This document shows, one piece after another, positions 141 through 17,734 of a stretch of DNA of 17,734 nt. The stretch's first letter is position 1; each line of letters begins with the position of its first letter. Source of the DNA: a virus; UHGV virus genome UHGV-1681308; one strand, written 5' to 3'. Both the position numbers and the translations under genes were made by a program. The notes under the pieces were generated by a model. It was not told where the DNA came from, made no database searches, and saw only the letters and a list, made by a program, of their open reading frames with translations.

Positions 141-617
141 ATGACAGAGCGAGAATTGCGGCTCCGGCTGAGGCGGCTCCTGGGTACGGACAGGGGACTG
201 CCGGTCGAGAAGCTCGCTGCAGAACTGACGACACACAAGGTGGACATATTGCCGTACATGACGTGGTTGTGGAAGACACATGGACAGAAGTTCAGAGTGC
301 TGCTGACAAAGAAAGTGGCAGACTACGCAAAAGCGGCGGAAAAGGAAAAACAGAGCCTTCCGCAGCTGATCGTAAATGCTGGCACAATTTTCTTGCGACT
401 CTCAGAAGGCTCGCTTGAATCCGACAGGACTATCGAGATACTCGGTGACATGTGCGAACCTTATGCACTGTACTTCTTATTTGCAGGCGTAGGATTGCCC
501 TGCGACAAGTACCGCGCAGCAGCCAAGGAATACGCAGCTATGTTTCCTGACGCAGTGCGTGCTCTGCCTGAACCGTATAAGAAACTCGGAGAGGCTATGA
601 CACATGATACCACTTGA
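141..617 (+). CDS. hypothetical protein (158 aa), first gene downstream of the element right end
   Basis: ATG at 141 preceded by AGGAG (131..135). Stop overlaps the start of the next gene. No motif recognised. Confidence 0.6.
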   Translation: MTERELRLRLRRLLGTDRGLPVEKLAAELTTHKVDILPYMTWLWKTHGQKFRVLLTKKVADYAKAAEKEKQSLPQLIVNAGTIFLRLSEGSLESDRTIEILGDMCEPYALYFLFAGVGLPCDKYRAAAKEYAAMFPDAVRALPEPYKKLGEAMTHDTT

Positions 618-3102
618 CAAGCATGACTTGACTATGCTGCATGTGCTCAGCTCAGAGAAACTGATGCTGAAGTCGCTGAAGGCTGCCAAGGCAGGGCAGG
701 AACTGTTTCCACCGAGACGTGTACCGCATCTTGATCTGCTGTGGCGACACTTCATACGTTTCGCCATACAATCCAAGAAAGAAGGGCACTGGCTGCAGTG
801 GGACAGACAGGCGTATGTAGCTGACTGCCTCGAAGAACTGAAGCAGCGTGACGACATCAGCGACGAATGCAAAGCGCGATTCCAGGCAATATGCGTACAG
901 TATATCGGCGCTGAGCCATTGGACGCCGAGGCAGGCGACAAGCTGCTGCTGGAAGCTGTCAACGAAGCTATCAGAGCACAGATCAGCAGAGCCGTGTACA
1001 ATTCCGAGGCTTTCGACGGCATCAGACAACTGGTCAATAAAGGCGTCGCGCTGAAGGAGTCGTTGGAGACAGCTGACGAGAAGCAGAAATTGTTTGTGAA
1101 TCCGCTGCTTGAAGTCGAGACTTACCTGCATGTGTTGCCTAAGATGCCTACAGGTGTTCGCTACTTCGACAGAGTCACCAACGGCGGCATGTCTGAGGGC
1201 GAGGTAGCTTTGATTGCTGGATTGATGGGCGGTGGAAAGTGTCTTGGGAAAGACACACCCGTTCTCATGTACGACGGAACTGTAAAGAAAGTTCAGGATG
1301 TACGTGTAGGTGATCAGCTTATTGGTATGGACTCTACACCAAGAACAGTAATGTCTTTAGGTAGAGGTCGCAGTGAAATGTATAAAGTCACACCAGTAAA
1401 AGGTGATCCATTTACAGTTAACAGGTATCATATTCTGACAATGATATGCAGTGGTCCTGTAATATGGAAAGGAGTCAGATATAAACCAGGTGATCTTATT
1501 GATATCTGCGTTGAGGATCTGTACAGGCAATCCGACAGCTTTAAGTCACTTCTTAAGGTTATCAGAACAGGAGTGAACTTTAAACCTAAGGAGGAGCCTG
1601 AGTTAGATCCTTATTTTGTAGGTTTGTATTTGGGAGATGGAACGAAAGGAAAAGCCCAGATCACAACTGGTGACACAGAAGTTGTCGACTACTGTGTTAA
1701 GTATATGCAAGGTTTAGGTTTTGCATGTAATGTATCCAAAGATACTAGACATAACTGCGTTTATGTCAGTATAAGTAGAGCCAGCAACAAAACCGAAGGT
1801 GCGTTAACTATAATTCGTAGGAATACGTTTATAGATGATGAGAAGCGAATTTTGGATGTGTATAAGACTGGAAGCAGAGAGATTCGCATGAAAATACTTG
1901 CGGGTCTAGTTGACTCTGATGGATACACGCACCATGGTTTCCATGAGATAGTTACGAAGTATAGTAATCTAGCAGATGATATATGCTTCGTAGCGCGATC
2001 ATTAGGGTATGCAGCATATGTTAAAAAGTGTGAGAAAAAATGCTATAATACAGGTGCTGCAGGTACGTACTATAAGGTCAGTATATCTGGAGATTTCTCA
2101 GACTTACCTGTTTTGTTACCTAGACATAAGTTGTCAAAACGTAAGCAAGTCAAATCTGTGCTGAGGACAGGATATACTATAACCAAATTACCCGAGGATG
2201 AGTATTATGGGTTTACCATAGATGGTGATCACAGATTTCTTCTGGGTGACTTTACAATTACACATAACACAGCAACAGCAATCCAACTGGTAGGCAGTCA
2301 ACTGCTTGTAGGCAATCCAGTAGCATGGTTCACATTCGAGCAGCCGTTCGATCAGGACCTGATGCAGCGTATGGTATCCTTCATCACAGGCTACAGCCTG
2401 GACATCATACGTGGACGGGAATTCAAGGATCTGCCCGAGGACATTCGGGCAAAGTTTCTCACATTGAGCAACCAAATGTCGGACAAACTGATAGCAGCAG
2501 ACTTCTCGAACAACAACATGCTTGACAAGAACGATCCCGAGGATGATGGCTCTGTTTACAGTCTGTGCAAACGACTTGACATATGGGCTGACCAAGGCAA
2601 AGTGCCAAGCTACATCATGTTCGACTGGGTAGGCGCGGCAGTGAAACGCCTAGCGGCTGTACGCAGCATAGACATCGGGCAGATCACCAACTACATTGCG
2701 CTTGCCAATGAGATCATCGACGGTCTCGTACAGCTTGCCAAGCAGTACCATACGCGTGTAATCTTCTTTCATCAGCTGGATCCGGCGATCAAGAAGTCGC
2801 CTCCGTCCAGGAAGCCTACGACTGTGGAGCTTCAGATGATGAAGACGATGTCGAACTACACGCAGTACGCAATGGCAATCGGCAAGCGTGACGAAAATCA
2901 GCGCTGTTGGTTCATCTGCGACAAGTGCCGTAACAGCTACCCGTCAGAATGCGTCATCGAGCTGGATGGTGCACACGCCAAGTTCAATCTTCTGGAAGGA
3001 TATGCACCAGGCCGCAACGGACAGTTCATAAATATCAACGAGCTGCAGGAGGAGCTCAACGACAACAGTGACACGGCAGACAGCTACCAGCCTATAATCT
3101 GA
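604..3102 (+). CDS. intein-containing P-loop ATPase, probably a DnaB-like (SF4) replicative helicase; extein about 489 aa plus intein 343 aa
   Basis: Walker A GLMGGGK is followed immediately by Cys, and the extein resumes with T after the intein (reconstituted GLMGGGKT). C-extein has a Walker B-like YIMFDWV and a DnaB H4-like RVIFFHQLD. Extein size and P-loop position fit DnaB; a terminase or other RecA-fold ATPase is not excluded. Confidence 0.7.
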   Translation: MIPLDKHDLTMLHVLSSEKLMLKSLKAAKAGQELFPPRRVPHLDLLWRHFIRFAIQSKKEGHWLQWDRQAYVADCLEELKQRDDISDECKARFQAICVQYIGAEPLDAEAGDKLLLEAVNEAIRAQISRAVYNSEAFDGIRQLVNKGVALKESLETADEKQKLFVNPLLEVETYLHVLPKMPTGVRYFDRVTNGGMSEGEVALIAGLMGGGKCLGKDTPVLMYDGTVKKVQDVRVGDQLIGMDSTPRTVMSLGRGRSEMYKVTPVKGDPFTVNRYHILTMICSGPVIWKGVRYKPGDLIDICVEDLYRQSDSFKSLLKVIRTGVNFKPKEEPELDPYFVGLYLGDGTKGKAQITTGDTEVVDYCVKYMQGLGFACNVSKDTRHNCVYVSISRASNKTEGALTIIRRNTFIDDEKRILDVYKTGSREIRMKILAGLVDSDGYTHHGFHEIVTKYSNLADDICFVARSLGYAAYVKKCEKKCYNTGAAGTYYKVSISGDFSDLPVLLPRHKLSKRKQVKSVLRTGYTITKLPEDEYYGFTIDGDHRFLLGDFTITHNTATAIQLVGSQLLVGNPVAWFTFEQPFDQDLMQRMVSFITGYSLDIIRGREFKDLPEDIRAKFLTLSNQMSDKLIAADFSNNNMLDKNDPEDDGSVYSLCKRLDIWADQGKVPSYIMFDWVGAAVKRLAAVRSIDIGQITNYIALANEIIDGLVQLAKQYHTRVIFFHQLDPAIKKSPPSRKPTTVELQMMKTMSNYTQYAMAIGKRDENQRCWFICDKCRNSYPSECVIELDGAHAKFNLLEGYAPGRNGQFININELQEELNDNSDTADSYQPII
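1240..2268 (+). mobile_element. intein (343 aa) with LAGLIDADG homing-endonuclease domain, inserted in the Walker A P-loop
   Basis: N-terminal splicing block CLGKDTPVLMYDGT begins with Cys at 1240. Two LAGLIDADG motifs: YFVGLYLGDGTKG and KILAGLVDSDGYTHH. C-terminal block GFTIDGDHRFLLGDFTITHN is followed by the +1 nucleophile Thr at 2269. The intein DNA looks visibly AT-richer than the flanking extein. Confidence 0.85.
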
Positions 3103-5383: not shown

Positions 5384-6406
5384 ATGAAAACAAAAAGAGT
5401 ACTGAAGAAAAACGCAATCAAGGCTTACAAAGCCTTCAACAGTGACCTGACTTGCAAAGGCTTCCGGTATGAAGTCGGCAAGGAATACCACCATAAAGGC
5501 AAGCTTGAGCTGTGCGAGGCAGGCTTCCATGCCTGCCCCAAACTGACTGACTGCTTCAATTTTTACCCGTTCGATAAAACTGAAACCAGAGTGGCCGAGG
5601 TGCTCGTCTGGGGTAAAGTCGAGTACGAAGACATAGGTGACAAGCTCTGCGCCTCAAATATCAAGGTAGTCAGAGAACTTACATGGACAGAGGTGTTGTC
5701 TCTGTGTAACAGCGGCTGCCGTAACAGTGGCTACCGTAACAGCGGCTGCCGTAACAGTGGCAACGGTAACAGTGGCAACCGTAACAGTGGCAACCGTAAC
5801 AGTGGCAACCGTAACAGCGGCTACGGTAACAGCGGCGATTGTAACAGTGGCAACTGGAATAGCGGCAACAATAACAGCGGCAATGGTAACATCGGCCACC
5901 GTAACAGCGGCTGCCGTAACAGTGGCAGCTGGAACAGCGGCGACGGTAACAGTGGCTACTTAAATACTCCGGCACAAAAGTATAGCTTTATTTTTAACAA
6001 ACAAGTTGAAAAGTCAGTCTTGGCTCAGATTGAGTTTCCGGAGTTCATGTGCTTCACTTTGTCAAAATGGATACCTGACTTCATAATGTCACAGCAGGAG
6101 AAAAAGCAGCACCCTGAATACGTTACAACAGGCGGTTATCTCAAGAAGTACACATATAAGGAAGCCTTCAGGAAGTCCTTCGAGGAAGCCAGACGCAAAC
6201 CTGACTGGCCCGAACAGCTTGAGAAGCTGAAATCACTGCCTAACTTCGATGCCAAGGTATTCGAGGAGATATCAGGCATCAAATCAAACGCACTTGGAAT
6301 CAGCGCTAAGGAGCTGGCAGACAAGGCAAAGACAGCCATGGAAGTCACAATGGCGGACATAGAGAAGGTATTCGGTTGCAAAATCAAGATTGTAGAGGAG
6401 AAGTGA
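5384..6406 (+). CDS. pentapeptide-repeat protein (N-x-G-x-x type, about 17 pentads) with conserved Cys/His-containing N-terminal domain and conserved C-terminal domain; paralog 1
   Basis: ATG at 5384 with AAGGA at 5371..5375. Central region is NSGCR NSGYR NSGCR NSGNG NSGNR NSGNR NSGNR and so on. N-terminal VLKKNAIKAYKAFNSDLTCKGFRYEVGK...CEAGFHAC and C-terminal KQHPEYVTTGGY...PDWPEQL...LPNFD.KVFEEISGIK are shared with 10835..11797. Confidence 0.8.
   Translation: MKTKRVLKKNAIKAYKAFNSDLTCKGFRYEVGKEYHHKGKLELCEAGFHACPKLTDCFNFYPFDKTETRVAEVLVWGKVEYEDIGDKLCASNIKVVRELTWTEVLSLCNSGCRNSGYRNSGCRNSGNGNSGNRNSGNRNSGNRNSGYGNSGDCNSGNWNSGNNNSGNGNIGHRNSGCRNSGSWNSGDGNSGYLNTPAQKYSFIFNKQVEKSVLAQIEFPEFMCFTLSKWIPDFIMSQQEKKQHPEYVTTGGYLKKYTYKEAFRKSFEEARRKPDWPEQLEKLKSLPNFDAKVFEEISGIKSNALGISAKELADKAKTAMEVTMADIEKVFGCKIKIVEEK
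5706..5957 (+). repeat. about 17 tandem copies of a 15-bp unit (GTAACAGYGGCNNNN) encoding the pentapeptide repeats, including three consecutive identical units
   Basis: Direct reading: cgtaacagtggcaac occurs three times back-to-back around 5765..5815, flanked by near-identical units. The period of 15 nt (5 codons) keeps the frame. Confidence 0.85.
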
Positions 6407-6407
6407 T

Positions 6408-6806
6408 ATGTCAGCAAATGCTTTCTATCCGCACACAGAAAGGGAACAGTTAGCTCCTTTTGCAAACAAACGTGTGTTGGTAACCGGAAAAGTGCAGCAT
6501 ATTGCAGCGTGGATGTCTGGTAAAAGGTGGGGGTTGCGAGCTACGCTGAAGCAGTGCAGAGTCAAGCATGGTAATATTCAAGTAAGTGTCGACCATTTTA
6601 CAGTCAACGTTGGTAAGCAGTTTATTGCCGTTCAAGCTAAAAGGAACACAACAGTATCTTTCTATGCCACAGTTAAGGCGTACCAGCCTGACAAACAGCT
6701 GAAATATGTACCGGATGATGTCAAGATCGCTCTTGGTTTTACGCCAAGAGTACCATCATATGGTATCAAATGGCCTACAAGGGTCGAGGTGCTCCATCGA
6801 TGCTAG
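6408..6806 (+). CDS. hypothetical protein (132 aa)
   Basis: ATG at 6408 is 1 nt after the stop of the preceding gene, with GAGGAG at 6395..6400. No motif recognised. Confidence 0.6.
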   Translation: MSANAFYPHTEREQLAPFANKRVLVTGKVQHIAAWMSGKRWGLRATLKQCRVKHGNIQVSVDHFTVNVGKQFIAVQAKRNTTVSFYATVKAYQPDKQLKYVPDDVKIALGFTPRVPSYGIKWPTRVEVLHRC

Positions 6807-7288
6807 TACGTGTAATTCCAAGGTACCTTATGGTACAGCTGTATAACAAGCATGTAGAAACTGGCGATACGGATGTGTTTCTTGACGGAAACCACTTTAT
6901 TTCCATTTACAGCACCAGAGATATGTCACCTTTGCCGGATCATCCACACGTATTTAAATTGATGTGCGATGATCTGACACTTGCTGATATGCGCATGTTC
7001 ACAGAGGATGGCTGGAATCATGTTACACTGTTTGATGAGGACATGGCAGACAAGATCGCAGCTTTCATAAAGAGCATTCCTGATACATGCAACTCACTTA
7101 TAGTGCACTGTGATGCAGGTGTCTCAAGATCAGGTGCTATAGGAATACTTGCCAACAGATACTTTAACGATGAAGGCAGCGCTGACGACGAGAAGTTCCA
7201 GCATGATTCGATGCCTTGGCTATCGCCAAACTCGCACATATTGATGCTTCTCAGACCCAGACTGCAAAGAAAGGAAACAAATGTCTAA
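6800..7288 (+). CDS. dual-specificity / protein-tyrosine-type (CX5R) phosphatase
   Basis: Active-site signature VHCDAGVSRSGAIG matches the cysteine-phosphatase P-loop (V)HCxAGxxR(S/T)G. Start is uncertain: the longest ORF begins at 6770 without an RBS; ATG 6800 (GAGGTG upstream, overlaps the previous stop) is preferred; ATG 6830 is also possible. Confidence 0.7.
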   Translation: MLVRVIPRYLMVQLYNKHVETGDTDVFLDGNHFISIYSTRDMSPLPDHPHVFKLMCDDLTLADMRMFTEDGWNHVTLFDEDMADKIAAFIKSIPDTCNSLIVHCDAGVSRSGAIGILANRYFNDEGSADDEKFQHDSMPWLSPNSHILMLLRPRLQRKETNV

Positions 7289-9132: not shown

Positions 9133-10218
9133 ATGTACAGAGCCCACAAGATACGCATAGATTGCACAAGAGAGCAGCACAGCCTGTTAATGCAGACTGC
9201 TGGCTGCGCTCGTTATGCGTACAATTGGGGACTCGATAAGTGGGGCAAGATGTACGAAGCCTGGAAGGCTGATGCCTCGCAGGAGAAACCGGACAGATAT
9301 TCTGTAGCCAGACAGTGGACACAGGAGAAACCAGAGTGGGCAAATAAGACATCCAGAAGTCCAGTTGACTACTCTTTTATCAACCTCGGCACCGCCTTCA
9401 AGAACTTCTCAAGGCGCAAAACAAAGTACCCGAAGAAGCACAAGAGGTCACAGGGAATCTCATTCCAAGTGGCACCTGACAAGGCAGCTATAGTTGACAA
9501 CCAACTTAGACTGCCTAACATAGACTACGTGAAGCTCCGAGAGACTCCACGCTTCCAGGGCAAGATAACAGGCTACACAGTTCAGTACATAGCTTCCCAC
9601 TGGTACGTTACAATCGCCTTCGACTGTCCAGACGTCCCAAAAGAAGCACCGGAGTCCGTCGTCGGTATCGACGTAGGACTCCAGCACCCTGCTGTAGCCT
9701 CCGATGGCACCAAACTAGAGCTCCCCATAGAGAAGCTCCAAAAGCTCGAAGTCAAGAAACGTAGAGCACAGCGAGCCCTCAGCAGGAGCAAGAGAAACTC
9801 CAATGCGCGAAAGCGCAAGCGTACCAAACTCCAGCGTATACAACAGAAGATTACCAACATCCGTCAGGATGCAGCCCACAAGTTTACAACTACGGTGAGC
9901 AAAAACCACGCCACTGTAGTCACAGAAGATCTGGACATAAGTGAGCTCCAAAAGAAGGCCCCCGCACGTTCAGTGCGCAGAGCATACAACAGCTCCCTTA
10001 TGGGAACCATTCTTTGGCAGATCTCGTACAAAGCGGTGCACCATATCAAGGCACCAAAGTACTTTCCGAGCACCAAGAGATGCTCAACTTGTGGACATGT
10101 GAAGGAGGCTATGCCTCCGAACGTCAGGACATATCATTGCGACCACTGCGGTACACATCTCGATAGAGATGAGAACGCAGCTCGCAACTTGATGTTGCAA
10201 CCGTGGGTCACACGGTAA
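9133..10218 (+). CDS. tnpB: TnpB (OrfB) RuvC-like RNA-guided nuclease, IS200/IS605 family
   Basis: 361 aa. N-terminus MYRAHKIRIDCTREQHSLL...RYAYNWGL. RuvC-I GIDVGL, RuvC-II VVTEDLD, zinc finger CSTCGH...CDHCG, RuvC-III DRDENAARNL. RBS AAGGAG at 9123..9128. Confidence 0.9.
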   Translation: MYRAHKIRIDCTREQHSLLMQTAGCARYAYNWGLDKWGKMYEAWKADASQEKPDRYSVARQWTQEKPEWANKTSRSPVDYSFINLGTAFKNFSRRKTKYPKKHKRSQGISFQVAPDKAAIVDNQLRLPNIDYVKLRETPRFQGKITGYTVQYIASHWYVTIAFDCPDVPKEAPESVVGIDVGLQHPAVASDGTKLELPIEKLQKLEVKKRRAQRALSRSKRNSNARKRKRTKLQRIQQKITNIRQDAAHKFTTTVSKNHATVVTEDLDISELQKKAPARSVRRAYNSSLMGTILWQISYKAVHHIKAPKYFPSTKRCSTCGHVKEAMPPNVRTYHCDHCGTHLDRDENAARNLMLQPWVTR

Positions 10219-10326: not shown

Positions 10327-10834
10327 CATATAGTGTCCTGTATCTGCAGAGCAGCAGCAAACCTGCACTACATCCACGAGGGTATCGCACCCTTCTATTG
10401 GGATGGCAACAGGGCAGCTGCTGTGATGAATTGTCTAGGTATAGAACAAGATGTAGCCGCTAAAGGAAAGCGCAGACTGCTAGTGCATTTGATGTGTCTG
10501 CTGGGTGAACCTGCCGGACTGATGTTCAAGGTATCTCTGAGCTGCAACATGCTGGAGTACTTGCTGGGCAAACATTTTGGCGTCTCTTTTCGAAAGTATA
10601 ATGCAGCGGCTGAAGAGATCGCCGGTTGTGTCTTCAAGTGCACAGTAAGTGAGGACACAGCAGGGGCCTATCTAGCGGATTTCAGCGCAACACAAGCTAT
10701 GAAAGACCACAACAGAAAGCTGGCAGAGATGCGCATAAACCCAAGAAAATGTAAAACACCTGCAATGCCATGTGCATCCTGTACTAAAACCAGGGCTCAG
10801 TGCATTTTGGCATGTAAAGTTAAGGACAAACAAA

Positions 10835-11797
10835 ATGAAAACAGAAAAAGTACTGAAGAAAAATGCAATCAAGGCCTATAAAGCCTTCAACAGCGACCTG
10901 ACCTGCAGAGGCTTCCAATATGAAGTCGGTAAGACCTACAGACATATATTCCTAATCCGCTGTTGCGAGTCAGGATTCCATGCTTGTGAAAGGCTGGTTG
11001 ACTGCTTTGGCTACTATGAACCAAACCAAGCAAAAACTCGAATTTGCGAGGTTCTGGTCTGGGGCGATATTCAGAGGCATGATAAAGACACCAAGTTATG
11101 CGCATCCAGAATCCATATTGTCAAAGAGTTGTCCTGGAACAAAGTATGTCGTCTATGCAATAATACCGGCATCGGCAATCAGGGCTTATATAACTCTGGG
11201 AATTATAACAGTGGAAACTCAAATTCCGGTAACTGGAATGCAGGCAATAACAACAAAGGTAAGTACAATTCAGGTGATTGTAACATTGGTTTAGGTAATG
11301 TAGGCACAGGCAATATAGGCAATAATAACTGTGGCCAATATAATTACGGTCATAGGAATTCCGGAAACAATAACATAGGATGCCGCAATGTAGGAAACTA
11401 CAATACGGGCTACTATAATGTCGGTAACTGGAACAAAGGGTCGTTTAATATCGGCTGCTTCAATACAGCAGATGCCATTGTACATATGTTTAACAAGCCT
11501 GTTGTCGGAATCAGTCCATTCGATATTTTAGTCCCAGGTTTCTGCATCTTTGATACGACAGAATGGGTGTCGGCCAGATGTATGACAGATGAAGAAAAGA
11601 AGCAGCACCCTGAGTACGTTACAACAGGAGGATACCAAAAACAATACGCCTACAAGGAAGCCTTCAGGAAGTCCTTCGAGAAGGCAAAGCGACTCCCAGA
11701 TTGGCCCGAACAGCTTAAGAGGCTAAAGGCGCTGCCGAATTTCGATGTAAAGGTATTTGAGGAGATATCAGGTATCAAGGAAGAGGAACTTATGTAA
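10835..11797 (+). CDS. pentapeptide-repeat protein (degenerate N-x-G-x-x repeats), paralog 2 of 5384..6406
   Basis: ATG at 10835 with AAGGA at 10822..10826; the RBS and first ~110 nt are roughly 90% identical to paralog 1. Repeat region GNYNSGNSNSGNWNAGNNNKGKYNSGDCNIGLGNVGTGNIGNNN... The conserved C-terminal domain ends ...FEEISGIKEEELM. Confidence 0.8.
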   Translation: MKTEKVLKKNAIKAYKAFNSDLTCRGFQYEVGKTYRHIFLIRCCESGFHACERLVDCFGYYEPNQAKTRICEVLVWGDIQRHDKDTKLCASRIHIVKELSWNKVCRLCNNTGIGNQGLYNSGNYNSGNSNSGNWNAGNNNKGKYNSGDCNIGLGNVGTGNIGNNNCGQYNYGHRNSGNNNIGCRNVGNYNTGYYNVGNWNKGSFNIGCFNTADAIVHMFNKPVVGISPFDILVPGFCIFDTTEWVSARCMTDEEKKQHPEYVTTGGYQKQYAYKEAFRKSFEKAKRLPDWPEQLKRLKALPNFDVKVFEEISGIKEEELM

Positions 11798-11807
11798 AGA
11801 AAGGAGC

Positions 11808-12149
11808 ATGAAAGTGCAAGTGACAGAACTTGAAACGAGAGAAGTAACAGTGACACGCTACATACTGACTGAGAAGGTCTTCCACCTTGAAGAGTGCCCT
11901 GATTGGGCTCAGTATGCAGCTGTGGATGATGATGGGACTGCCTATTTTTATATGTGTCCACCTAGTCCCAGTGTACATGGGTATAGGTCTGCCTCAGCGT
12001 GTATTCGGATAGACACCGGTTATTCGCTTTTCGACGCCACCGACTGGCAGCACAGCCTTATCGAGCGGCCAAAGAAGGTACTCGAGGTTACCATGTCGGA
12101 CATCGAGAAGAAATATGGATGCAAAGTCAAGATTGTACGGGAGGAGTGA
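11808..12149 (+). CDS. small CPDWA-motif protein carrying the C-terminal tail motif that is fused to paralog 1 (EVTM.DIEK..GCK.KIV.E)
   Basis: RBS AAGGAG at 11801..11806. ATG 11808 is only 1 nt from the RBS, so GTG 11814 may be the true start. Contains EECPDWAQYAAVDDDGTAYFY, similar to 12685..13287. Ends ...EVTMSDIEKKYGCKVKIVREE, compared with ...EVTMADIEKVFGCKIKIVEEK at the end of 5384..6406. Confidence 0.5.
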   Translation: MKVQVTELETREVTVTRYILTEKVFHLEECPDWAQYAAVDDDGTAYFYMCPPSPSVHGYRSASACIRIDTGYSLFDATDWQHSLIERPKKVLEVTMSDIEKKYGCKVKIVREE

Positions 12150-12151
12150 AA

Positions 12152-12688
12152 ATGACTACAAAAGCATTTGTTACAAAATATGGGACTCAGATTAGCGGTG
12201 ATTTGGTCGATGAGCTGTCGCATCATTCAGATGTTCGTAGTTTCGTTCACTGGCTGCTGCATGAATGCGGCTATCTCGAATCCTTGAAGTTTGACTGGCT
12301 GGTTCAGTTGCTCAGAACCAGAGATGCAGACAGCTTGAGGCCCTATGTTGCCGAAGCTGTACTCAAATCCTGGCAGCAGCCAGTGTCCATCGGTATTCCG
12401 TCATCACTGTCGCCTGAAGCTGAAGCCTTGCTTACGGCAATGATAAATGACCATGAACATACGCAAGATGTGTATGCGCATGCAGTGAACATGAAAGAGA
12501 TCTCTGTGCAGAATGTACAGGTAGCTTATTGCGCCTCACCAGATATCAAGCGTTTGCTGTGGCAAATCCTGCACGGTATTATTGTCTGGAAATCTCTTGA
12601 TTACCGGTTATCAGAAACGTATGTAACACAGCAGGTGCTCAAATATATGCAACCAGTTGTATCTTTGTTTGAGGAGGACCTGGAATGA
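12152..12688 (+). CDS. hypothetical protein (178 aa)
   Basis: ATG at 12152 with GAGGAG at 12141..12146. The longer ORF from 11999 lacks an RBS. Confidence 0.55.
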   Translation: MTTKAFVTKYGTQISGDLVDELSHHSDVRSFVHWLLHECGYLESLKFDWLVQLLRTRDADSLRPYVAEAVLKSWQQPVSIGIPSSLSPEAEALLTAMINDHEHTQDVYAHAVNMKEISVQNVQVAYCASPDIKRLLWQILHGIIVWKSLDYRLSETYVTQQVLKYMQPVVSLFEEDLE

Positions 12689-13287
12689 CTGTAGACGATT
12701 TGGTTATGTTCGATACCAAGAAGCTTCTTGACTTCTTTAAGATAGATCAGTGCCCTGACTGGGCAGAGTGGGTCGCTGTAGATAGTGATGGAACGGTCTG
12801 TTATTATTCTGCTGAACCTACTATACTTAATACTTATAAGGATGAATGGAGGTGTGAAACAGTTAGACATAACTTTCGACCTGTCAGGATAAATGGCAAT
12901 AATATTAAAATTACTGTCGAGGACTGGACAAAAGCGAAAGTCAAGAGGCCTCCTACAGGCAATGAAATGTTTCTTGGTAAGTGCAGAAACATTTATGTCC
13001 ACATGAAAGACTCTAAGTATGTAGTTGCTTTCGAGTGCCGCACAGAGGATACCTATGACAACGATAGCTATTATTTGGAATTGACAGTCGAATTGGCAGC
13101 AGAGATATTCTCGAGAGACTTAGGGCATATCATTGCTGAGTGGCTGGGTAAGGATGTGTCTGTAGAAACCGAAGGTTCACATATTCGCAGTGCTCTTCAG
13201 TCCAGTATACCTGAAGCTTTCTCAGCCGCAGTTACTGATGTTCGTCTGTCATCAGGGCCAGGCACGAAAGGTCTGTGCAAAATATGA
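12685..13287 (+). CDS. CPDWA-motif protein (200 aa), paralogous domain to 11808..12149
   Basis: ATG at 12685 with GAGGAGG at 12671..12677. Motif DQCPDWAEWVAVDSDGTVCYY near the N-terminus. AT-richer than its neighbours. Confidence 0.6.
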   Translation: MTVDDLVMFDTKKLLDFFKIDQCPDWAEWVAVDSDGTVCYYSAEPTILNTYKDEWRCETVRHNFRPVRINGNNIKITVEDWTKAKVKRPPTGNEMFLGKCRNIYVHMKDSKYVVAFECRTEDTYDNDSYYLELTVELAAEIFSRDLGHIIAEWLGKDVSVETEGSHIRSALQSSIPEAFSAAVTDVRLSSGPGTKGLCKI

Positions 13288-13324
13288 AAACACTCAAAGA
13301 TTAAAGTAACAGAGAGGAGAATGT

Positions 13325-14665
13325 ATGAAAAAAGGACTCGGAAACCTGCTGGATGCACTCAGTAAGGCAGACGGCGGCGTCAGTATGTCCATTACAGAAT
13401 TCAAAGAAGCCCAGTACGGCATTCCGCTTAAGCATTACTGTTTGCAGTATCTTTTCGGCAGCACCGGGCTCAGGTACGGCGGCTTTTATCTGCTTGCCGG
13501 TAAGCCGAAGTCGTGCAAATCGCCCTTTGCTTTCTTCCTTGCACATCTCAGCTGCGAGAATGATGGCATTGCATATGTGTACGAACTTGAAGGCAAGGCG
13601 TCACCGACGTTGCTGACCAGCATGTTTGCAGACAGGCCCGAATGGCGAGAGGATGGCGGCCCTTTCAAGCTCATCCGAGGACTGACATTGGACGGCGCCG
13701 AGAAGCACCTTACAAAGTCTGTGCTCAAACTTTTCAAGCAGTACGAGGTTTACGATACTCCGCTGCTGATCGACTGGGACTCCATCTCAGGAGCTGCGAT
13801 GTCAGATGTCGTGTCCAAGATCGAGAAGGAAGGCGTAGCCAGTAAAGGCTACTATGAAAAAGCGCACATCATGAAGCATCTGACAGAGAGCTGGGTCGCA
13901 CTTACCAACAACATGCCTGTCGTGTTCGTCGGCGTCTTGCAGGAAAAGGAAAAGGCTGCAGAGGGATGGGCACCTGCAGGCGGACCGCAGAAGTCGTATG
14001 GCGGTGGCGATTCGCAGTTGTTCAAGGCAGGTACATTACTGTCGTTCTCTCACAGCACGCTGCAGAACGGTGCTGGCAAGCTCGTTCGTATCAAGACTGC
14101 ACTGAACGGATTTGCAGACAGCAGAGGCATTGAAGTAAAGTTTGTCTGGGATCAGTTCGGCGACCTTGAGACCGATTCACAGGGGCACAAGTGGCTTTTC
14201 GCAGAGGCGACGGCAAAGTGCCTCGCACAGCCGAAGATCGTAGGCGAGCTCAGAGACATCATTGATGTGAAGATCAATGATTCCGGCGACAGAGTGACTT
14301 GCAAGACGTTCGGTCTTGACAAGGTTACAGCAACAGAGTTCGAGGAAGCCCTGTTTGCGCCTGAGAACGCCAAGGTACTGGAAGATCTGTACAGATACCA
14401 AAAGATAGAAAAGATCAAGCTGCCCTCAGAGTATGCAGCTTACGCCGAGAAAGCAGGAGACAAGGAAGCCGCATATAAAGAGGCGCAGAAGCAGGCACAG
14501 CTCGAAGAGCGTGAGGCCAAGGCTGCGGAAGCTGCCGCAAAGGAAGCAGCCAAGCAGGCAAAACGAGAGGCGAAAGTCAAGAAGTCAGCTGCGGCATCCA
14601 ATCCGTTAGCGGCTTTAGCAGACATGGCAAAGAAAGCTGAGGCATCAGATGCAAAAGCTGAATAA
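13325..14665 (+). CDS. RecA-family recombinase, UvsX-like, with a Lys/Ala/Glu-rich low-complexity C-terminal tail
   Basis: Variant Walker A LLAGKPKSCKS resembles the T4 UvsX GPSKSFKS type. Walker B-like PLLIDWDS. L2-like GGPQKSYGGGDSQLFKAG. YVYELEGKASPTLLTSMFADRPEW resembles the UvsX segment after Walker A. RBS GAGGAG at 13314..13319. Confidence 0.7.
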   Translation: MKKGLGNLLDALSKADGGVSMSITEFKEAQYGIPLKHYCLQYLFGSTGLRYGGFYLLAGKPKSCKSPFAFFLAHLSCENDGIAYVYELEGKASPTLLTSMFADRPEWREDGGPFKLIRGLTLDGAEKHLTKSVLKLFKQYEVYDTPLLIDWDSISGAAMSDVVSKIEKEGVASKGYYEKAHIMKHLTESWVALTNNMPVVFVGVLQEKEKAAEGWAPAGGPQKSYGGGDSQLFKAGTLLSFSHSTLQNGAGKLVRIKTALNGFADSRGIEVKFVWDQFGDLETDSQGHKWLFAEATAKCLAQPKIVGELRDIIDVKINDSGDRVTCKTFGLDKVTATEFEEALFAPENAKVLEDLYRYQKIEKIKLPSEYAAYAEKAGDKEAAYKEAQKQAQLEEREAKAAEAAAKEAAKQAKREAKVKKSAAASNPLAALADMAKKAEASDAKAE

Positions 14666-14990
14666 CAAGCGCGTGTTCTGTACACCTTACGACGATCAGC
14701 GTATCGTGACAGCAAAAATCAAGAACGAAAAACACTATGTACTGAAAGCATGTCCGTTCTGCGGACGCAAGCCGGTAATCGAGACAGTGGAGCCGATATT
14801 CCATGATGATAAAGTCCAGTACTTTGTCTCATGTGCGCACCACGGCTGCGACTGCTACACAAGAACCTATCGCAGCCCAGGTGAGGCAATCGCGAAATGG
14901 AACAGACGCATCAGTCCGCTCGATCGCATTGTCGCTTCTGACTTGAAACGCAGTCTTAAAGCAGCGCAGAAAGAGGCGACAAATGTGTGA
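14649..14990 (+). CDS. Lar-family restriction-alleviation-like small Cys protein (putative anti-restriction)
   Basis: CPFCG ... SCAHHGCDC ... EAIAKWNRR matches the pattern I recall for Lar-family proteins (CPFCG zinc motif, conserved AW-NRR near the C-terminus). The identification rests on recalled motifs, not a search. Confidence 0.5.
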   Translation: MQKLNNKRVFCTPYDDQRIVTAKIKNEKHYVLKACPFCGRKPVIETVEPIFHDDKVQYFVSCAHHGCDCYTRTYRSPGEAIAKWNRRISPLDRIVASDLKRSLKAAQKEATNV

Positions 14991-15684: not shown

Positions 15685-16160
15685 TGCCGAATGCACAGCT
15701 TATGGCTGCGCTGCACGCAAGTACCAAAGCGTTGCGTGAAATGGCACGCGACGACGCCACATACGACTTCGTGTATGCGCACAAAAACATGTTCGTCGGC
15801 AACAGAGAAGCCTTCAAGTCTGCTGTAGCCGCGTGTCAGGAGCGCTCAGGCAGAGAGCTGCTTGACAAGCTGGATCTGCAAGAGATCTGCATCGAGAAAG
15901 TAACCGAAGCAGAACTGCTGCACAGCTGCTACTACTTTGTCGACAGTCCACTGTATAAGCGCTTCATTCAGCTCACCAGCAGGCATGGCGGCATAGGTAC
16001 GGCAATCTTCGTCGTCAACAAGCGAGGCGTTGTTGTCACTAATAAGTACAGTCTGGACGCCTACGTACGGGTCAAGCATGTACTTGGCAGCACCGGTAAG
16101 TTGCCTGACATCATGTGGGCGCCAATAGAAGACCTTAAAGGTTTCACGTTCTACAACTAA
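15684..16160 (+). CDS. hypothetical protein (158 aa)
   Basis: ATG at 15684 overlaps the upstream stop (TGATG), with GGAGGTG at 15672..15678. Confidence 0.55.
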   Translation: MPNAQLMAALHASTKALREMARDDATYDFVYAHKNMFVGNREAFKSAVAACQERSGRELLDKLDLQEICIEKVTEAELLHSCYYFVDSPLYKRFIQLTSRHGGIGTAIFVVNKRGVVVTNKYSLDAYVRVKHVLGSTGKLPDIMWAPIEDLKGFTFYN

Positions 16161-16169
16161 GGAGGTTGG

Positions 16170-17734
16170 ATGCTGGAAACAAAAGTCATGTTCAATGCCA
16201 CAGAGCTCACAATCAAAGTGTCTGTGTGGGCACGGGGCGACCCGTTCCCTGCTATTGGGCATGCTGTAGGTATAGACACAGAAACCGAACTTATTACGGA
16301 CGCCGAGCTTACGCCGCCATTGGTTGTACTCGGCGTTTTCAATCCTGCCGACATGACTTGCTACCAGATAGCATGGAGTGATGCACAGTACTTCATGCAG
16401 GAGCTGCTTAAGCGTGACTGCAAGCTGTACTTCGCCAATGCAGGGTTCGACTACTTCGAGCTGGAGAGTGATGAGCTTCGGGATGCGGTCAGCAATGACC
16501 GTCTCGTAGACTTGCTCATCAGAGCTCCGCTTAAAGAGATCGCCACTATAGGGTACATCAGAACGCACAGCCTGAAGGACGCCTGCCAATGGCATCTCAA
16601 TTACGAGATGGACAAACATGAGGACGAAGGCGACCAGGCAGCTCGTGTCACGTTCCGCAGGAACAAAGACATCACAGATGAGCAGCGCATTTACCTGGCA
16701 ATCGACTGCGCGGCTACTTATTACGGGTGCGAGGCGATTGGTCCTCAGGCGACAGAGTGTACACATACACGCGGTCAGATAGTCCTGTATCATATCAGCA
16801 AGAACGGTTTTCCGTACGACCCGTACATGTTCGACTACTGCGAGAAGCTGCTGCAGCAGCATATGGATCAGTATCGTGCAGAGCTCATCACGTACGGGTA
16901 TCCGGATCCGTACAAGAAAGATATGCCCACTGAAATCAAGCAGCTGCAGGACGGCTGGCCTATGTTCAGGGACGCCTGGTTCGCTGCGCATATCAAAGAA
17001 AAGTACCAGTTCGAGGACTCGCTGCCAGGCAAGAGCACAGTAAAGCGCATACTGCTGTACGGCACTGCGTATATGCAGCACGGTACAGATAAAGGCACTC
17101 TGGCGCGGGTGTTCGCAGCATTGCTGCTGCAGGACAAGAACCTGTCCAAAAAGGAACAGGCTGCATATGACCAGCTGGTGGAGGAGCACGACTTCCTGGA
17201 TGCCTGCAATGGTATCGGCAAGAAGGAGGTTTGGCCGACGCTGCTGGTCGCGTGGATGCGTGCCGAGATGGACGGCAAGGACATCGCTGGCATATGGCAG
17301 GCAGTGGACGATGCGGTGCAGGACCATCCGCAATGGTTCTGTACTGAGGAGCCTGTCAAGCCCAAGGCATTCATGCAGGACCACCTGCGGGAACTGCAGG
17401 AAAAGTACCCTGGACTGGAGTTCGACAAGACGCTTAAGTCAGGTGAGCTGAAGTGCTCAAAGAAGGACGCGTGGAAGCTGGCGGATGCGGGGGTGAACGA
17501 TCCGTTGCTGACCGCGTACGTGAACTTTGGTCATGTGCAAAAGTACAAGTCGTCGTTCACGAACAGGGAATACCTCAGGAGCGACGGCAGAGTAAGGTGC
17601 CGCTTTGGCATCGTGGAGAGCGGTCGGTTTGGCCGCTTCACACCGCGAGGTGTGTCGAACAAGAAAGTGAATTGCTGGAACACCTTAACGGGTAACGCCG
17701 AAGGCAATCAGCAGCCGAGCCTTGTATCGAGAGA
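16170..17734 (+). CDS. family-A DNA polymerase, N-terminal part (3'-5' exonuclease domain plus start of polymerase domain); runs off the window and is probably interrupted by an IStron from about 17655
   Basis: Strong RBS TAAGGAGG at 16158..16165. Exo I VGIDTETE, Exo II NAGFDYFEL, Exo III YLAIDCAATYY. The frame stays open to the window end; the track omits it only because it has no stop in the window. From 17655 the DNA matches the IStron 5' end, so sequence beyond about 17654 is probably intron, not exon. Confidence 0.65.
   Translation, partial: MLETKVMFNATELTIKVSVWARGDPFPAIGHAVGIDTETELITDAELTPPLVVLGVFNPADMTCYQIAWSDAQYFMQELLKRDCKLYFANAGFDYFELESDELRDAVSNDRLVDLLIRAPLKEIATIGYIRTHSLKDACQWHLNYEMDKHEDEGDQAARVTFRRNKDITDEQRIYLAIDCAATYYGCEAIGPQATECTHTRGQIVLYHISKNGFPYDPYMFDYCEKLLQQHMDQYRAELITYGYPDPYKKDMPTEIKQLQDGWPMFRDAWFAAHIKEKYQFEDSLPGKSTVKRILLYGTAYMQHGTDKGTLARVFAALLLQDKNLSKKEQAAYDQLVEEHDFLDACNGIGKKEVWPTLLVAWMRAEMDGKDIAGIWQAVDDAVQDHPQWFCTEEPVKPKAFMQDHLRELQEKYPGLEFDKTLKSGELKCSKKDAWKLADAGVNDPLLTAYVNFGHVQKYKSSFTNREYLRSDGRVRCRFGIVESGRFGRFTPRGVSNKKVNCWNTLTGNAEGNQQPSLVSR
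17655..17734 (+). mobile_element. 5' terminus of a second IStron-like element (group I intron module) inside the polymerase gene; truncated by the window edge
   Basis: 17655..17676 is identical (22/22) to the left end at 8684..8705. The downstream block agcagccgagcc and the taacggg segment are shared with 8792..8830. This copy lacks an ~85-nt segment present at 8706..8790. Confidence 0.5.

What the first reader, a model, noticed from the sequence alone, without database searches (positions are those of the whole stretch)
11808..13287. Module shuffling: CPDWA-motif proteins and a tail motif shared with paralog 1
The last ~21 residues of 5384..6406 (EVTMADIEKVFGCKIKIVEEK) are nearly identical to the C-terminus of the separate small ORF 11808..12149 (EVTMSDIEKKYGCKVKIVREE), which follows paralog 2. 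That small ORF and 12685..13287 both contain ECPDWA-(Q/E)-(Y/W)-(A/V)-AVD-(D/S)-DGT. This suggests a gene fusion/fission event and a small family of interchangeable domains next to the repeat genes.
Basis: seen in the sequence. Interest (0 to 1): 0.55.

Follow-up and report, generated by a model that had tools for sequence, protein, structure and literature searches.

The report
Shuffled domains in phage accessory genes
Two undescribed protein modules, a 21-30 residue C-terminal tail and a ~73-residue "CPDWA" repeat domain, are really shared between neighbouring genes of an uncultured large phage and are shuffled among many small phage proteins, but this is ordinary phage domain shuffling and their function remains unknown.

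Summary
The tail of 5384..6406 matches the tail of 11808..12149 (17/30 identical, E=4e-10; 79% DNA identity over 66 nt up to the stop). ORFs 11808..12149 and 12685..13287 share a ~70-residue domain (E=1e-11; both hit phrog_1972 and phrog_21375).

The fusion/shuffling interpretation holds, but it is lineage-wide, not local.
- Among the 120 closest pentapeptide-protein clusters, 57 carry linker plus tail, 60 lack it, and 3 have another C-terminus.
- In every locus checked, the untailed form is followed by stop, Shine-Dalgarno site and a CPDWA-tail gene. Spacers fall in all three frame relations, so this is neither a sequencing error nor a frameshift.
- The tailed form looks like the pair minus ~250 nt.
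- The tail ends at least six unrelated small-protein families in uncultured phages, a Clostridium phage and a Ruminococcus genome. It is under protein-level selection (pN/pS 0.16).
- CPDWA is a repeat domain with 870 cluster representatives and 1-10 tandem copies, once fused to a deaminase.

No Pfam, PDB or literature match exists for either module. My best guess, which is inference, is that the tail is an autonomous docking or oligomerisation handle and CPDWA a variable binding domain. Interest is moderate to low.

The parts
5384..6406 (+). Paralogue 1 (340 aa): DUF7666, pentapeptide repeats, helical C-body, linker and tail (the fused form).
   Evidence: Pfam DUF7666 E=1.7e-30 and Pentapeptide_2 E=1.1e-12. 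phrog_14105 E=5e-81. 56% identical to paralogue 2 over 324 aa. AF2 mean pLDDT 71.
6284..6340 (+). Linker SNALGISAKELADKAKTAM, found only in the fused form.
   Evidence: Low AF2 confidence at residues 313-318. The same linker pattern (G[IV]Sx[KE][ED]LAxK...) appears in all fused homologues listed.
6341..6406 (+). Tail module of paralogue 1 (EVTMADIEKVFGCKIKIVEEK plus stop). Its last codons, GAGGAG, lie 7 nt before the ATG of the next gene at 6408.
   Evidence: AF2 predicts a helix at 323-330 followed by an extended segment, with pLDDT about 80.
10835..11797 (+). Paralogue 2 (320 aa from ATG 10835): DUF7666, pentapeptide repeats and C-body, ending ...FEEISGIKEEELM with no tail.
11798..11813 (+). 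Intergenic spacer with a conserved Shine-Dalgarno site (AAAGGAG, GGAG at 11803-11806) between paralogue 2 and the small ORF.
   Evidence: Eight spacers in seven loci begin TAA-N-AGAAAGGAG, with lengths of 10, 11, 15 and 16 nt.
11808..12149 (+). Small ORF (113 aa; 111 aa if it starts at GTG 11814): N-terminal strand-like leader, CPDWA domain and tail.
   Evidence: 141 homologous clusters, conserved over the full length at about 118 aa. phrog_1972 E=2.8e-6.
11865..12074 (+). CPDWA domain of the small ORF (residues ~20-89, ...KVFHLEECPDWAQYAAVDDDGTAYFY...FDATDWQHSLIERP).
   Evidence: AF2 pLDDT 74-86 for residues 30-80.
12084..12149 (+). Tail module of the small ORF (EVTMSDIEKKYGCKVKIVREE plus stop). 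Its GGAGGAG serves as the Shine-Dalgarno site for the ATG at 12152.
12152..12688 (+). 178-aa ORF between the two CPDWA genes. It has no family and is not part of either module.
   Evidence: No significant Pfam, PHROG or NCBIfam hit. Its stop overlaps the next gene's start (ATGA at 12685-12688).
12685..13287 (+). 200-aa ORF: one N-terminal CPDWA domain (residues 18-89, nt 12736-12951) followed by an unrelated 108-residue C-terminal part with no tail.
   Evidence: The C-terminal part matches only one cluster representative, P0384.

Best explanation
The window comes from an uncultured large phage. Related contigs are 190-197 kb, and the host is probably a gut Clostridia species.

Shown:
- Its accessory-gene region holds repeated cassettes made of three parts. 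These are a DUF7666-pentapeptide-repeat protein, a ~73-residue CPDWA repeat domain, and a 21-30 residue C-terminal tail.
- The usual layout is two coupled genes: an untailed pentapeptide gene, then a stop, a Shine-Dalgarno site and a small CPDWA-tail gene.
- Paralogue 1 is a derived, conserved variant in which the tail is joined directly to the pentapeptide protein by a linker.
- Both modules are portable. The tail ends many unrelated small phage proteins and is held by protein-level selection. CPDWA occurs as 1-10 tandem copies, with or without other domains.

Inferred:
- An in-frame deletion of about 250 nt removed the stop, the ribosome-binding site and most of the CPDWA domain to create the fused form.
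- This junction arose once, and recombination among paralogues then spread it.
- The tail is an autonomous helix-plus-strand handle on a flexible linker. It either self-associates or docks on a common partner.
- CPDWA, whose central stretch varies most between family members, is the variable binding part.
- The pentapeptide helix may be a DNA-mimic effector like Qnr/MfpA-type proteins. That last point rests on established knowledge of those families, not on any test here.
For: Homology and junction:
- Statistics.
- Homology between the two copies starts about 14 nt before the pentapeptide ATG and stops exactly at the tail's stop codon. The genes downstream of the two tails are unrelated.
- MAFFT places the fused form as the split form minus the stop, Shine-Dalgarno site and CPDWA core.

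Conservation of both layouts:
- Of 120 clusters, 57 are tailed, 60 untailed and 3 carry another C-terminus.
- Tailed genes sit at the matching position upstream of an untailed pentapeptide/CPDWA-tail pair in L002 and L005, suggesting orthologues.
- Split pairs appear in 8 related loci, each with a conserved Shine-Dalgarno site.
- One 192-kb contig carries at least 8 tails and 10 CPDWA ORFs.

Single origin plus recombination:
- All fused forms share the same linker pattern.
- On an NJ tree of protein bodies, the C-terminal state needs 20 changes, against 42 when states are shuffled.

Tail portability:
- It ends an SH3-like 122-aa family, phrog_7488-like proteins and several others. It also sits internally before a DUF551 domain or before a second CPDWA domain.
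- It occurs in Clostridium phage Amboise and in a Ruminococcus genome.

Tail selection and structure:
- Selection acts on the protein: pN/pS 0.16, codon-position entropy 0.45/0.18/1.25.
- AF2 gives a low-confidence linker and a locally confident tail with helix 323-330.

CPDWA as a repeat domain:
- 870 cluster representatives, up to 10 tandem copies, and one protein with 7 copies plus a deaminase domain.
Against: - No experiment or co-folding supports any binding partner or self-association.
- AF2 confidence is modest (mean pLDDT 63 and 71, pTM 0.46 and 0.37). Whether the tail packs on its own protein is therefore not excluded.
- Direction is not proven. The only directional clue is weak similarity between LADKAK in the linker and LIERPK at the end of the CPDWA domain. 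A similar LWER motif also precedes tails in families that lack CPDWA.
- The tail state is not monophyletic on the body tree. This could reflect repeated independent events or a poorly resolved tree rather than recombination.
- The DNA-mimic role of the pentapeptide part is by analogy only. Fold matches to Qnr, AlbG and MfpA were not significant (E>1).
Confidence: 0.6

Rival explanations
1. The shared motifs are chance or low-complexity matches with no common ancestry.
For: The tail is short (21 residues) and rich in K, E and V. The CPDWA proteins are only 27% identical.
Against: - Pairwise E-values are 4e-10 and 1e-11.
- DNA identity is 79% over 66 nt, ending at both stop codons.
- The tail HMM hits only the two ORFs (E=1e-14 or better) and nothing else in the six-frame translation.
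- Both CPDWA proteins hit the same two PHROGs.
- Hundreds of homologues conserve the same columns.
Confidence: 0.01
2. The stop at 11795 is a sequencing or assembly error, or is bypassed by a programmed frameshift or readthrough. Paralogue 2 and the small ORF would then make one fused pentapeptide-CPDWA-tail protein.
For: - The gap is only 10-16 nt.
- The small ORF's frame stays open for 45 nt upstream of the stop.
- Some gene callers produced N-terminally extended versions such as P0022.
Against: - The stop, AAAGGAG and start arrangement recurs in at least 8 independent loci.
- Spacers of 10, 11, 15 and 16 nt put the two genes in all three frame relations.
- No slippery site is conserved.
- No pentapeptide-CPDWA-tail fusion was found among the 120 closest clusters or in the loci.
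Confidence: 0.03
3. Fission rather than fusion. The tailed pentapeptide protein is ancestral. A segment carrying a stop, a ribosome-binding site and a CPDWA domain was inserted between body and tail to create the two-gene form.
For: - Both forms are about equally frequent.
- Fitch reconstruction on the midpoint-rooted NJ tree gave 'tailed' at the root.
- The tail is a self-standing module that joins many other domains.
Against: - CPDWA-tail proteins also occur away from pentapeptide genes (L006, L007, L009, L010). They form a tight full-length family, so they are an independent unit.
- DUF7666 matches in cultured phages cover only the first ~110 residues of the query, not the tail.
- Inserting a precisely placed stop, Shine-Dalgarno site, start and domain is less parsimonious than a single deletion.
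- The NJ root is unreliable.
Confidence: 0.2
4. The tail is conserved for a DNA- or RNA-level reason, not as a peptide. Candidates are a recombination linker at module boundaries, a terminator, or a translation-initiation region for the downstream gene.
For: - The duplicated unit ends exactly at the tail's stop codon.
- The last codons (GAGGAG, GGAGGAG) lie 5-8 nt before the downstream ATGs at 6408 and 12152.
Against: - Across 36 distinct tail sequences, third codon positions vary freely while second positions barely vary (entropy 1.25 against 0.18; pN/pS 0.16).
- The final residues, where the Shine-Dalgarno site lies, are the least conserved part of the tail.
- The tail also occurs inside proteins (L018 and L006).
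Confidence: 0.05
5. The tail is not autonomous. It is the last structural element of whatever domain precedes it, completing that fold, and carries no common function.
For: - In many carriers the tail follows a conserved LWER or LIERP motif directly.
- AF2 confidence for the tail in the small ORF is low (pLDDT 55-66).
Against: - It follows at least six unrelated N-terminal families.
- In the pentapeptide proteins, a low-confidence linker of about 19 residues separates it from the body.
- CPDWA domains occur without it, both in tandem arrays and in the 200-aa ORF.
Confidence: 0.15

Closest known systems
Pfam DUF7666 (PF24703) + Pentapeptide_2 (PF01469) phage proteins, phrog_14105 / phrog_4433 (for example Enterobacteria phage ES18 gp53)
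   Same: Both paralogues match these models strongly. The DUF7666 N-terminal domain is found in 181 cultured-phage records.
   Different: Matches in cultured phages cover only the first ~110 residues. The helical C-body, linker and tail belong to the uncultured lineage. No function is known for any member, and no paper mentions DUF7666.
phrog_1972 / phrog_21375 (phage proteins of unknown function)
   Same: Both CPDWA proteins in the window match them (E from 2.8e-6 to 5e-9). Distant copies occur in Pseudomonas, Xanthomonas, Salmonella, Agrobacterium and Klebsiella phages, all annotated as hypothetical.
   Different: Here the domain is amplified (at least 10 ORFs in one 192-kb genome), occurs in tandem arrays of up to 10 copies, and is combined with the tail. 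No Pfam model exists.
Rosetta-stone gene fusion/fission pairs (Marcotte/Enright principle; from general knowledge)
   Same: A segment is encoded by a separate adjacent gene in one copy and fused to the upstream protein in another.
   Different: Only the tail of the downstream gene survives in the fusion. The CPDWA domain is lost, so the fusion does not by itself argue that the pentapeptide and CPDWA parts interact.
DUF551 (PF04448) and similar small promiscuous domains of phage accessory proteins
   Same: Short modules recombined among many otherwise unrelated small phage proteins. One tail carrier has the tail followed by DUF551 (E=1.6e-11).
   Different: The tail is much shorter (about 21-30 residues), is nearly always C-terminal, and is not modelled in Pfam, PHROGs or NCBIfam.
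Pentapeptide-repeat DNA mimics (Qnr, MfpA, AlbG)
   Same: Repeat type, and a predicted beta-helix with a strand every five residues.
   Different: Structural matches are not significant (E>1). The repeats belong to the Pentapeptide_2 (N/G-rich) class. No gyrase or DNA-mimic evidence exists here.

Membership tests
DUF7666 + Pentapeptide_2 phage proteins (the two paralogues) | Pfam matches above the gathering score for both domains | tested here: met
   DUF7666 scores 105.8 and 116.6 bits against a cut-off of 27. Pentapeptide_2 scores 48.1 and 64.4 bits against 26.4.
phrog_1972 / phrog_21375 (CPDWA domain) | Significant profile match over the domain in both window proteins | tested here: met
   Small ORF: E=2.8e-6 and 4.1e-4. 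200-aa ORF: E=1.2e-8 and 5.2e-9.
CPDWA as a tandem-repeat domain | The same unit is found head-to-tail several times within one protein | tested here: met
   10 copies in P0290, 7 in P0291 and P0298, and 3 in L010 565-1422.
Gene fusion by deletion (split pair versus fused gene) | Collinear DNA homology on both sides of a gap that removes the stop, ribosome-binding site and start | tested here: met
   6098-6282 matches 11594-11778 (80%) and 6341-6406 matches 12084-12149 (79%). The stretch between is 58 nt in one copy and 305 nt in the other.
Gene fusion by deletion (split pair versus fused gene) | Direction: the split form is ancestral | tested here: inconclusive
   The NJ/Fitch analysis does not resolve it. 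CPDWA-tail genes exist as independent units.
Programmed ribosomal frameshift or readthrough fusion | Conserved frame relation and slippery or readthrough context between the two ORFs | tested here: not met
   Spacers of 10, 11, 15 and 16 nt give all three frame relations. Each has its own Shine-Dalgarno site.
DNA-level recombination linker or regulatory element | Nucleotide conservation independent of codon position | tested here: not met
   Entropy by codon position is 0.45/0.18/1.25 and pN/pS is 0.16.
Known small folds for the tail (KH, HTH, RHH) | Significant profile or structure match | tested here: not met
   KH_1 gives E=0.043, below its cut-off. The best PDB sequence hit is E=0.05, to a family-B polymerase segment. 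hhalign of the tail against the start of the CPDWA unit gives probability 0.1.
C-terminal degradation tag | Conserved extreme C-terminal residues | tested here: not met
   The endings vary: KE, KEK, KDR, REE, GS, NDD, and extensions of up to 6 residues.
Docking or oligomerisation handle (working model for the tail) | Physical self-association or binding to a common partner | not testable with these tools
   No multimer prediction or experiment was available. There is only indirect support from the flexible linker, the amphipathic helix plus strand, and the many carrier families.
Anti-phage defence or known anti-defence families | Match to PADLOC or NCBIfam models | tested here: not met
   No significant hit for any of the seven proteins. 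The only listed match is DpdD at E=0.004 and 13 bits on the 178-aa ORF.

The most novel reading that the evidence does not exclude
The tail is a universal docking tag of gut Clostridia phages. All tail-bearing proteins of a phage (at least 8 in one 192-kb genome) would co-assemble through it, or plug into one common phage or host partner. The phage could then mount interchangeable effector or binding domains (pentapeptide helices, CPDWA units, SH3-like domains, DUF551) on a single scaffold, a cohesin-dockerin-like system for phage accessory proteins.
Probability: 0.2. Interest if true: 0.65.

Novelty: new member of a known kind. Interest (0 to 1): 0.35.

Why it matters
The analysis defines two protein modules that no current family library models. 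One is a ~73-residue repeat domain with 870 cluster representatives. The other is a C-terminal tail of 21-30 residues shared by many unrelated small proteins of uncultured phages. Both sit in the large unannotated fraction of phage accessory genes. If the tail proves to be a common docking or oligomerisation handle, it would tie many orphan proteins to one partner and could be used as bait to find that partner. As it stands, the finding is a clear but ordinary case of domain shuffling and gene fusion in a phage, with no function shown.

Tried and rejected
- Source and cultured relatives: megablast of 10700-13400 against cultured phages found nothing. tblastn of the UvsX-like protein found nothing. 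The lineage has no cultured relative in that collection.
- An exact-sequence look-up of the small ORF was not on record.
The 46-residue version returned only proteins under 85 aa, which looks like a bias of the word-index step, so it does not measure how common the tail is.
- Idea that the tail is a relic of the first strand of a following CPDWA repeat (KLTAEVF...DC against EVTMADIEKKFGC): hhalign probability 0.1, rejected.
- Structure and sequence searches:
  - PDB sequence search with the CPDWA profile gave 0 hits.
  - PDB sequence search with the tail profile gave only E>=0.05.
  - Foldseek against BFVD gave only uncharacterised phage proteins at E>=7e-3.
  - Foldseek against PDB for paralogue 1 gave E>1.
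  - The afdb50 library was unavailable.
- NCBIfam and PADLOC gave nothing significant.
- The first scan of bacterial genomes, using small-ORF patterns, found no relatives.
- Literature: no paper mentions DUF7666. A search for pentapeptide repeat, phage and anti-defense gave nothing relevant.
- The genes downstream of the two tails were compared in case the duplication extended further. They are unrelated.
- A single monophyletic origin of tailed pentapeptide proteins is not supported by the body tree (20 state changes).
Full report
**1. Setting**

All convincing genes in the 17.7-kb window lie on the + strand. The gene content points to a phage replication and accessory region:
- an ATPase interrupted by an intein with a LAGLIDADG homing endonuclease (604-3102);
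- a TnpB/IS605 OrfB gene (9133-10218);
- a Lar-type restriction-alleviation protein (14649-14990);
- a UvsX-like recombinase (13325-14665).

No cultured phage is close at the DNA or protein level. Homologous proteins come from metagenomic contigs of 190-197 kb.

**2.

- Paralogues 5384..6406 and 10835..11797 are 56% identical over 324 residues (E=2e-119). Both consist of DUF7666 plus Pentapeptide_2 repeats.
- The last 30 residues of paralogue 1 align with the last 30 of the small ORF 11808..12149 (17 identical, E=4e-10).
- At the DNA level, 6341-6406 matches 12084-12149 at 79%, ending exactly at both stop codons.
- A tail HMM finds only these two ORFs in the six-frame translation of the window.
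- The small ORF and 12685..13287 share a ~70-residue domain (E=1e-11) and hit the same PHROGs, phrog_1972 and phrog_21375.
- Small corrections apply. The second protein reads QCPDWA. The tails share 15 of 21 residues. The small ORF probably starts at GTG 11814, because GGAG (11803-11806) lies only 1 nt before ATG 11808 and the closest homologue begins MQVTEL.

**3. Anatomy of the fusion**

- Homology between the two copies starts about 14 nt before the pentapeptide ATG. It runs to ...FEEISGIK (6282 / 11778) and resumes 58 nt later in copy 1 but 305 nt later in copy 2.
- A multiple alignment of three fused and six split junctions shows the fused form lacks the stop codon, the AAAGGAG Shine-Dalgarno site, the start codon and about the first 80 codons of the small gene. 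It carries instead a short linker, G[IV]Sx[KE][ED]LAxK...M.
- The genes downstream of the two tails are unrelated. The repeated unit is therefore a cassette that ends at the tail's stop.

**4. Not an error and not a frameshift**

The stop-AAAGGAG-start junction recurs in eight related loci. Spacers are 10, 11, 15 or 16 nt, so the two genes fall in all three frame relations. No pentapeptide-CPDWA-tail fusion protein was seen.

**5. Both layouts are conserved across the lineage**

- Of the 120 closest database clusters of the pentapeptide protein, 57 carry linker plus tail, 60 stop after ...EELV or ...ELGL, and 3 have a lysine-rich alternative end.
- Tailed genes sit at the corresponding position upstream of an untailed pentapeptide/CPDWA-tail pair in L002 and L005.
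- All fused forms share the same linker pattern, which argues for one origin of the junction.
- On an NJ tree of the protein bodies, however, the C-terminal state needs 20 changes, against 42 when states are shuffled. I read this as recombination among paralogues. A poorly resolved tree is an alternative.
- The direction, deletion-fusion rather than insertion-fission, is inferred from parsimony. CPDWA-tail genes form a tight full-length family of 141 clusters and also occur away from pentapeptide genes.

**6. The tail is a portable module**

- A scan of viral contigs found the motif ...KEVTMxE[VI]EEKFGCKVKIV... at the C-terminus of several unrelated small proteins:
  - a 122-aa SH3-like family present in many 100-250 kb contigs;
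  - phrog_7488-like proteins;
  - several orphan proteins.
- It also occurs internally, followed by DUF551 or by a second CPDWA domain.
- Further carriers appear among short metagenomic proteins.
- Clostridium phage Amboise has a variant ending ...EMTLDEIEEALGYKVKIVGS. A Ruminococcus sp. genome carries another copy.
- Among 36 distinct coding sequences of the tail, pN/pS is 0.16. Entropy by codon position is 0.45/0.18/1.25. The constraint therefore acts on the peptide, not on the DNA.
- The extreme C-terminus varies, which argues against a terminal degradation tag.
- AF2 of paralogue 1 gives a low-confidence linker (313-318) and a locally confident tail (pLDDT about 80), with a helix at 323-330 followed by an extended CKIKIV segment.
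- No Pfam, PHROG, NCBIfam or PDB match exists.

**7. CPDWA is a repeat domain**

- A profile search over 1.84 billion cluster representatives found 870 proteins at E<=1e-3. The domain (profile positions 22-98) is present one to ten times in tandem.
- The unit consensus is KLPKLTAEVFDRPDCPEWAKYAAVDKDGKAYFYEEKP...W...FDASDWQNSLIERP.
- A common layout is a 50-80 residue N-terminal part, one or more CPDWA units, and a 120-135 residue C-terminal part. One protein joins seven units to a cytidine/dCMP deaminase domain.
- Within the lineage there are CPDWA-tail, CPDWA-tail-CPDWA, triple CPDWA, X-CPDWA-tail and CPDWA-X proteins, the last being the window's 200-aa ORF. One 192-kb contig has at least 10 CPDWA ORFs and 8 tails.
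- The middle of the domain is the most variable part of the family alignment.
- AF2 gives a small beta-rich core (pLDDT 74-86). It has no significant structural neighbour.

**8. Mechanism**

Shown: the modular architecture, the junction, its conservation, and protein-level selection on the tail.

Inferred:
- The tail is an autonomous helix-strand handle that self-associates or docks on a common partner. It works on many unrelated carriers and can sit on a flexible linker.
- CPDWA is a variable binding unit.
- The pentapeptide helix may act as a DNA mimic by analogy with Qnr and MfpA. No test here supports that, and fold matches gave E>1.

None of these functional steps could be tested with the available tools.

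**9. Verdict**

This is a well-documented case of domain shuffling and gene fusion among uncharacterised phage accessory proteins. It is useful for defining two unmodelled modules but is not surprising in kind.

Noticed in passing
window 604-3102: An ATPase gene (weak KaiC/RecA-like match at residues 182-214) is interrupted by an intein with Hint and LAGLIDADG homing-endonuclease domains at residues ~213-497 and beyond.
   Followed up: partly
window 9133-10218: A TnpB / IS605 OrfB (Cas12f-like) gene lies between the two pentapeptide paralogues. The interval between paralogues is about 4.4 kb here, against about 2.8 kb in the syntenic loci L002 and L005. TnpB therefore looks like an insertion specific to this genome. 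Another TnpB lies in L001.
   Followed up: partly
L001 14614-18894 (ERZ24658943 NODE_12, 194 kb relative): The related phage encodes a reverse transcriptase (RVT_1). It is followed by genes with Prok-E2_D (weak), Prok-JAB (faint) and ThiF hits, an E1/E2/JAB ubiquitin-like set, a few kb downstream of its pentapeptide/CPDWA arrays.
   Followed up: no
window 11808-11870 and homologues (L004 5914-, L010 6004-): The N-terminal leader of the small CPDWA-tail proteins contains short repeats that vary in copy number between homologues (VTVT, VTRTEKR, RTETRTETR, NVNVNVNVKVKV). AF2 predicts this region with pLDDT below 50.
   Followed up: no
window 6770-7288: A 172-aa protein has a weak dual-specificity phosphatase signature (DSPc E=3.9e-5, below the cut-off; phrog_5614 E=5e-17).
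   Followed up: no
window 14649-14990: A Lar-type restriction-alleviation protein (PF14354, E=1.9e-10) lies just downstream of the UvsX-like gene. The same gene order occurs in L001.
   Followed up: no
window 15846-17384 (- strand) versus 16.1 kb to the window end (+ strand): The 512-aa minus-strand ORF is probably a shadow of a plus-strand gene. That gene stays open for 524 codons up to the window end and matches the position of a 556-aa gene in L001.
   Followed up: partly
L001 7180-8064, L004 3005-3910, L008 3115-3996: Some pentapeptide paralogues lack the DUF7666 N-terminal domain. They directly follow a paralogue with the lysine-rich end ...TGSTVEKLTTKPKRKREKSTKGA, which gives tandem pentapeptide genes.
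   Followed up: no
P0298 (679 aa, metagenomic cluster representative): Seven CPDWA repeats are fused to a C-terminal cytidine/dCMP deaminase domain (PF00383, E=1.5e-23). It was the only significant known-domain match among the ten CPDWA-containing representatives scanned.
   Followed up: partly
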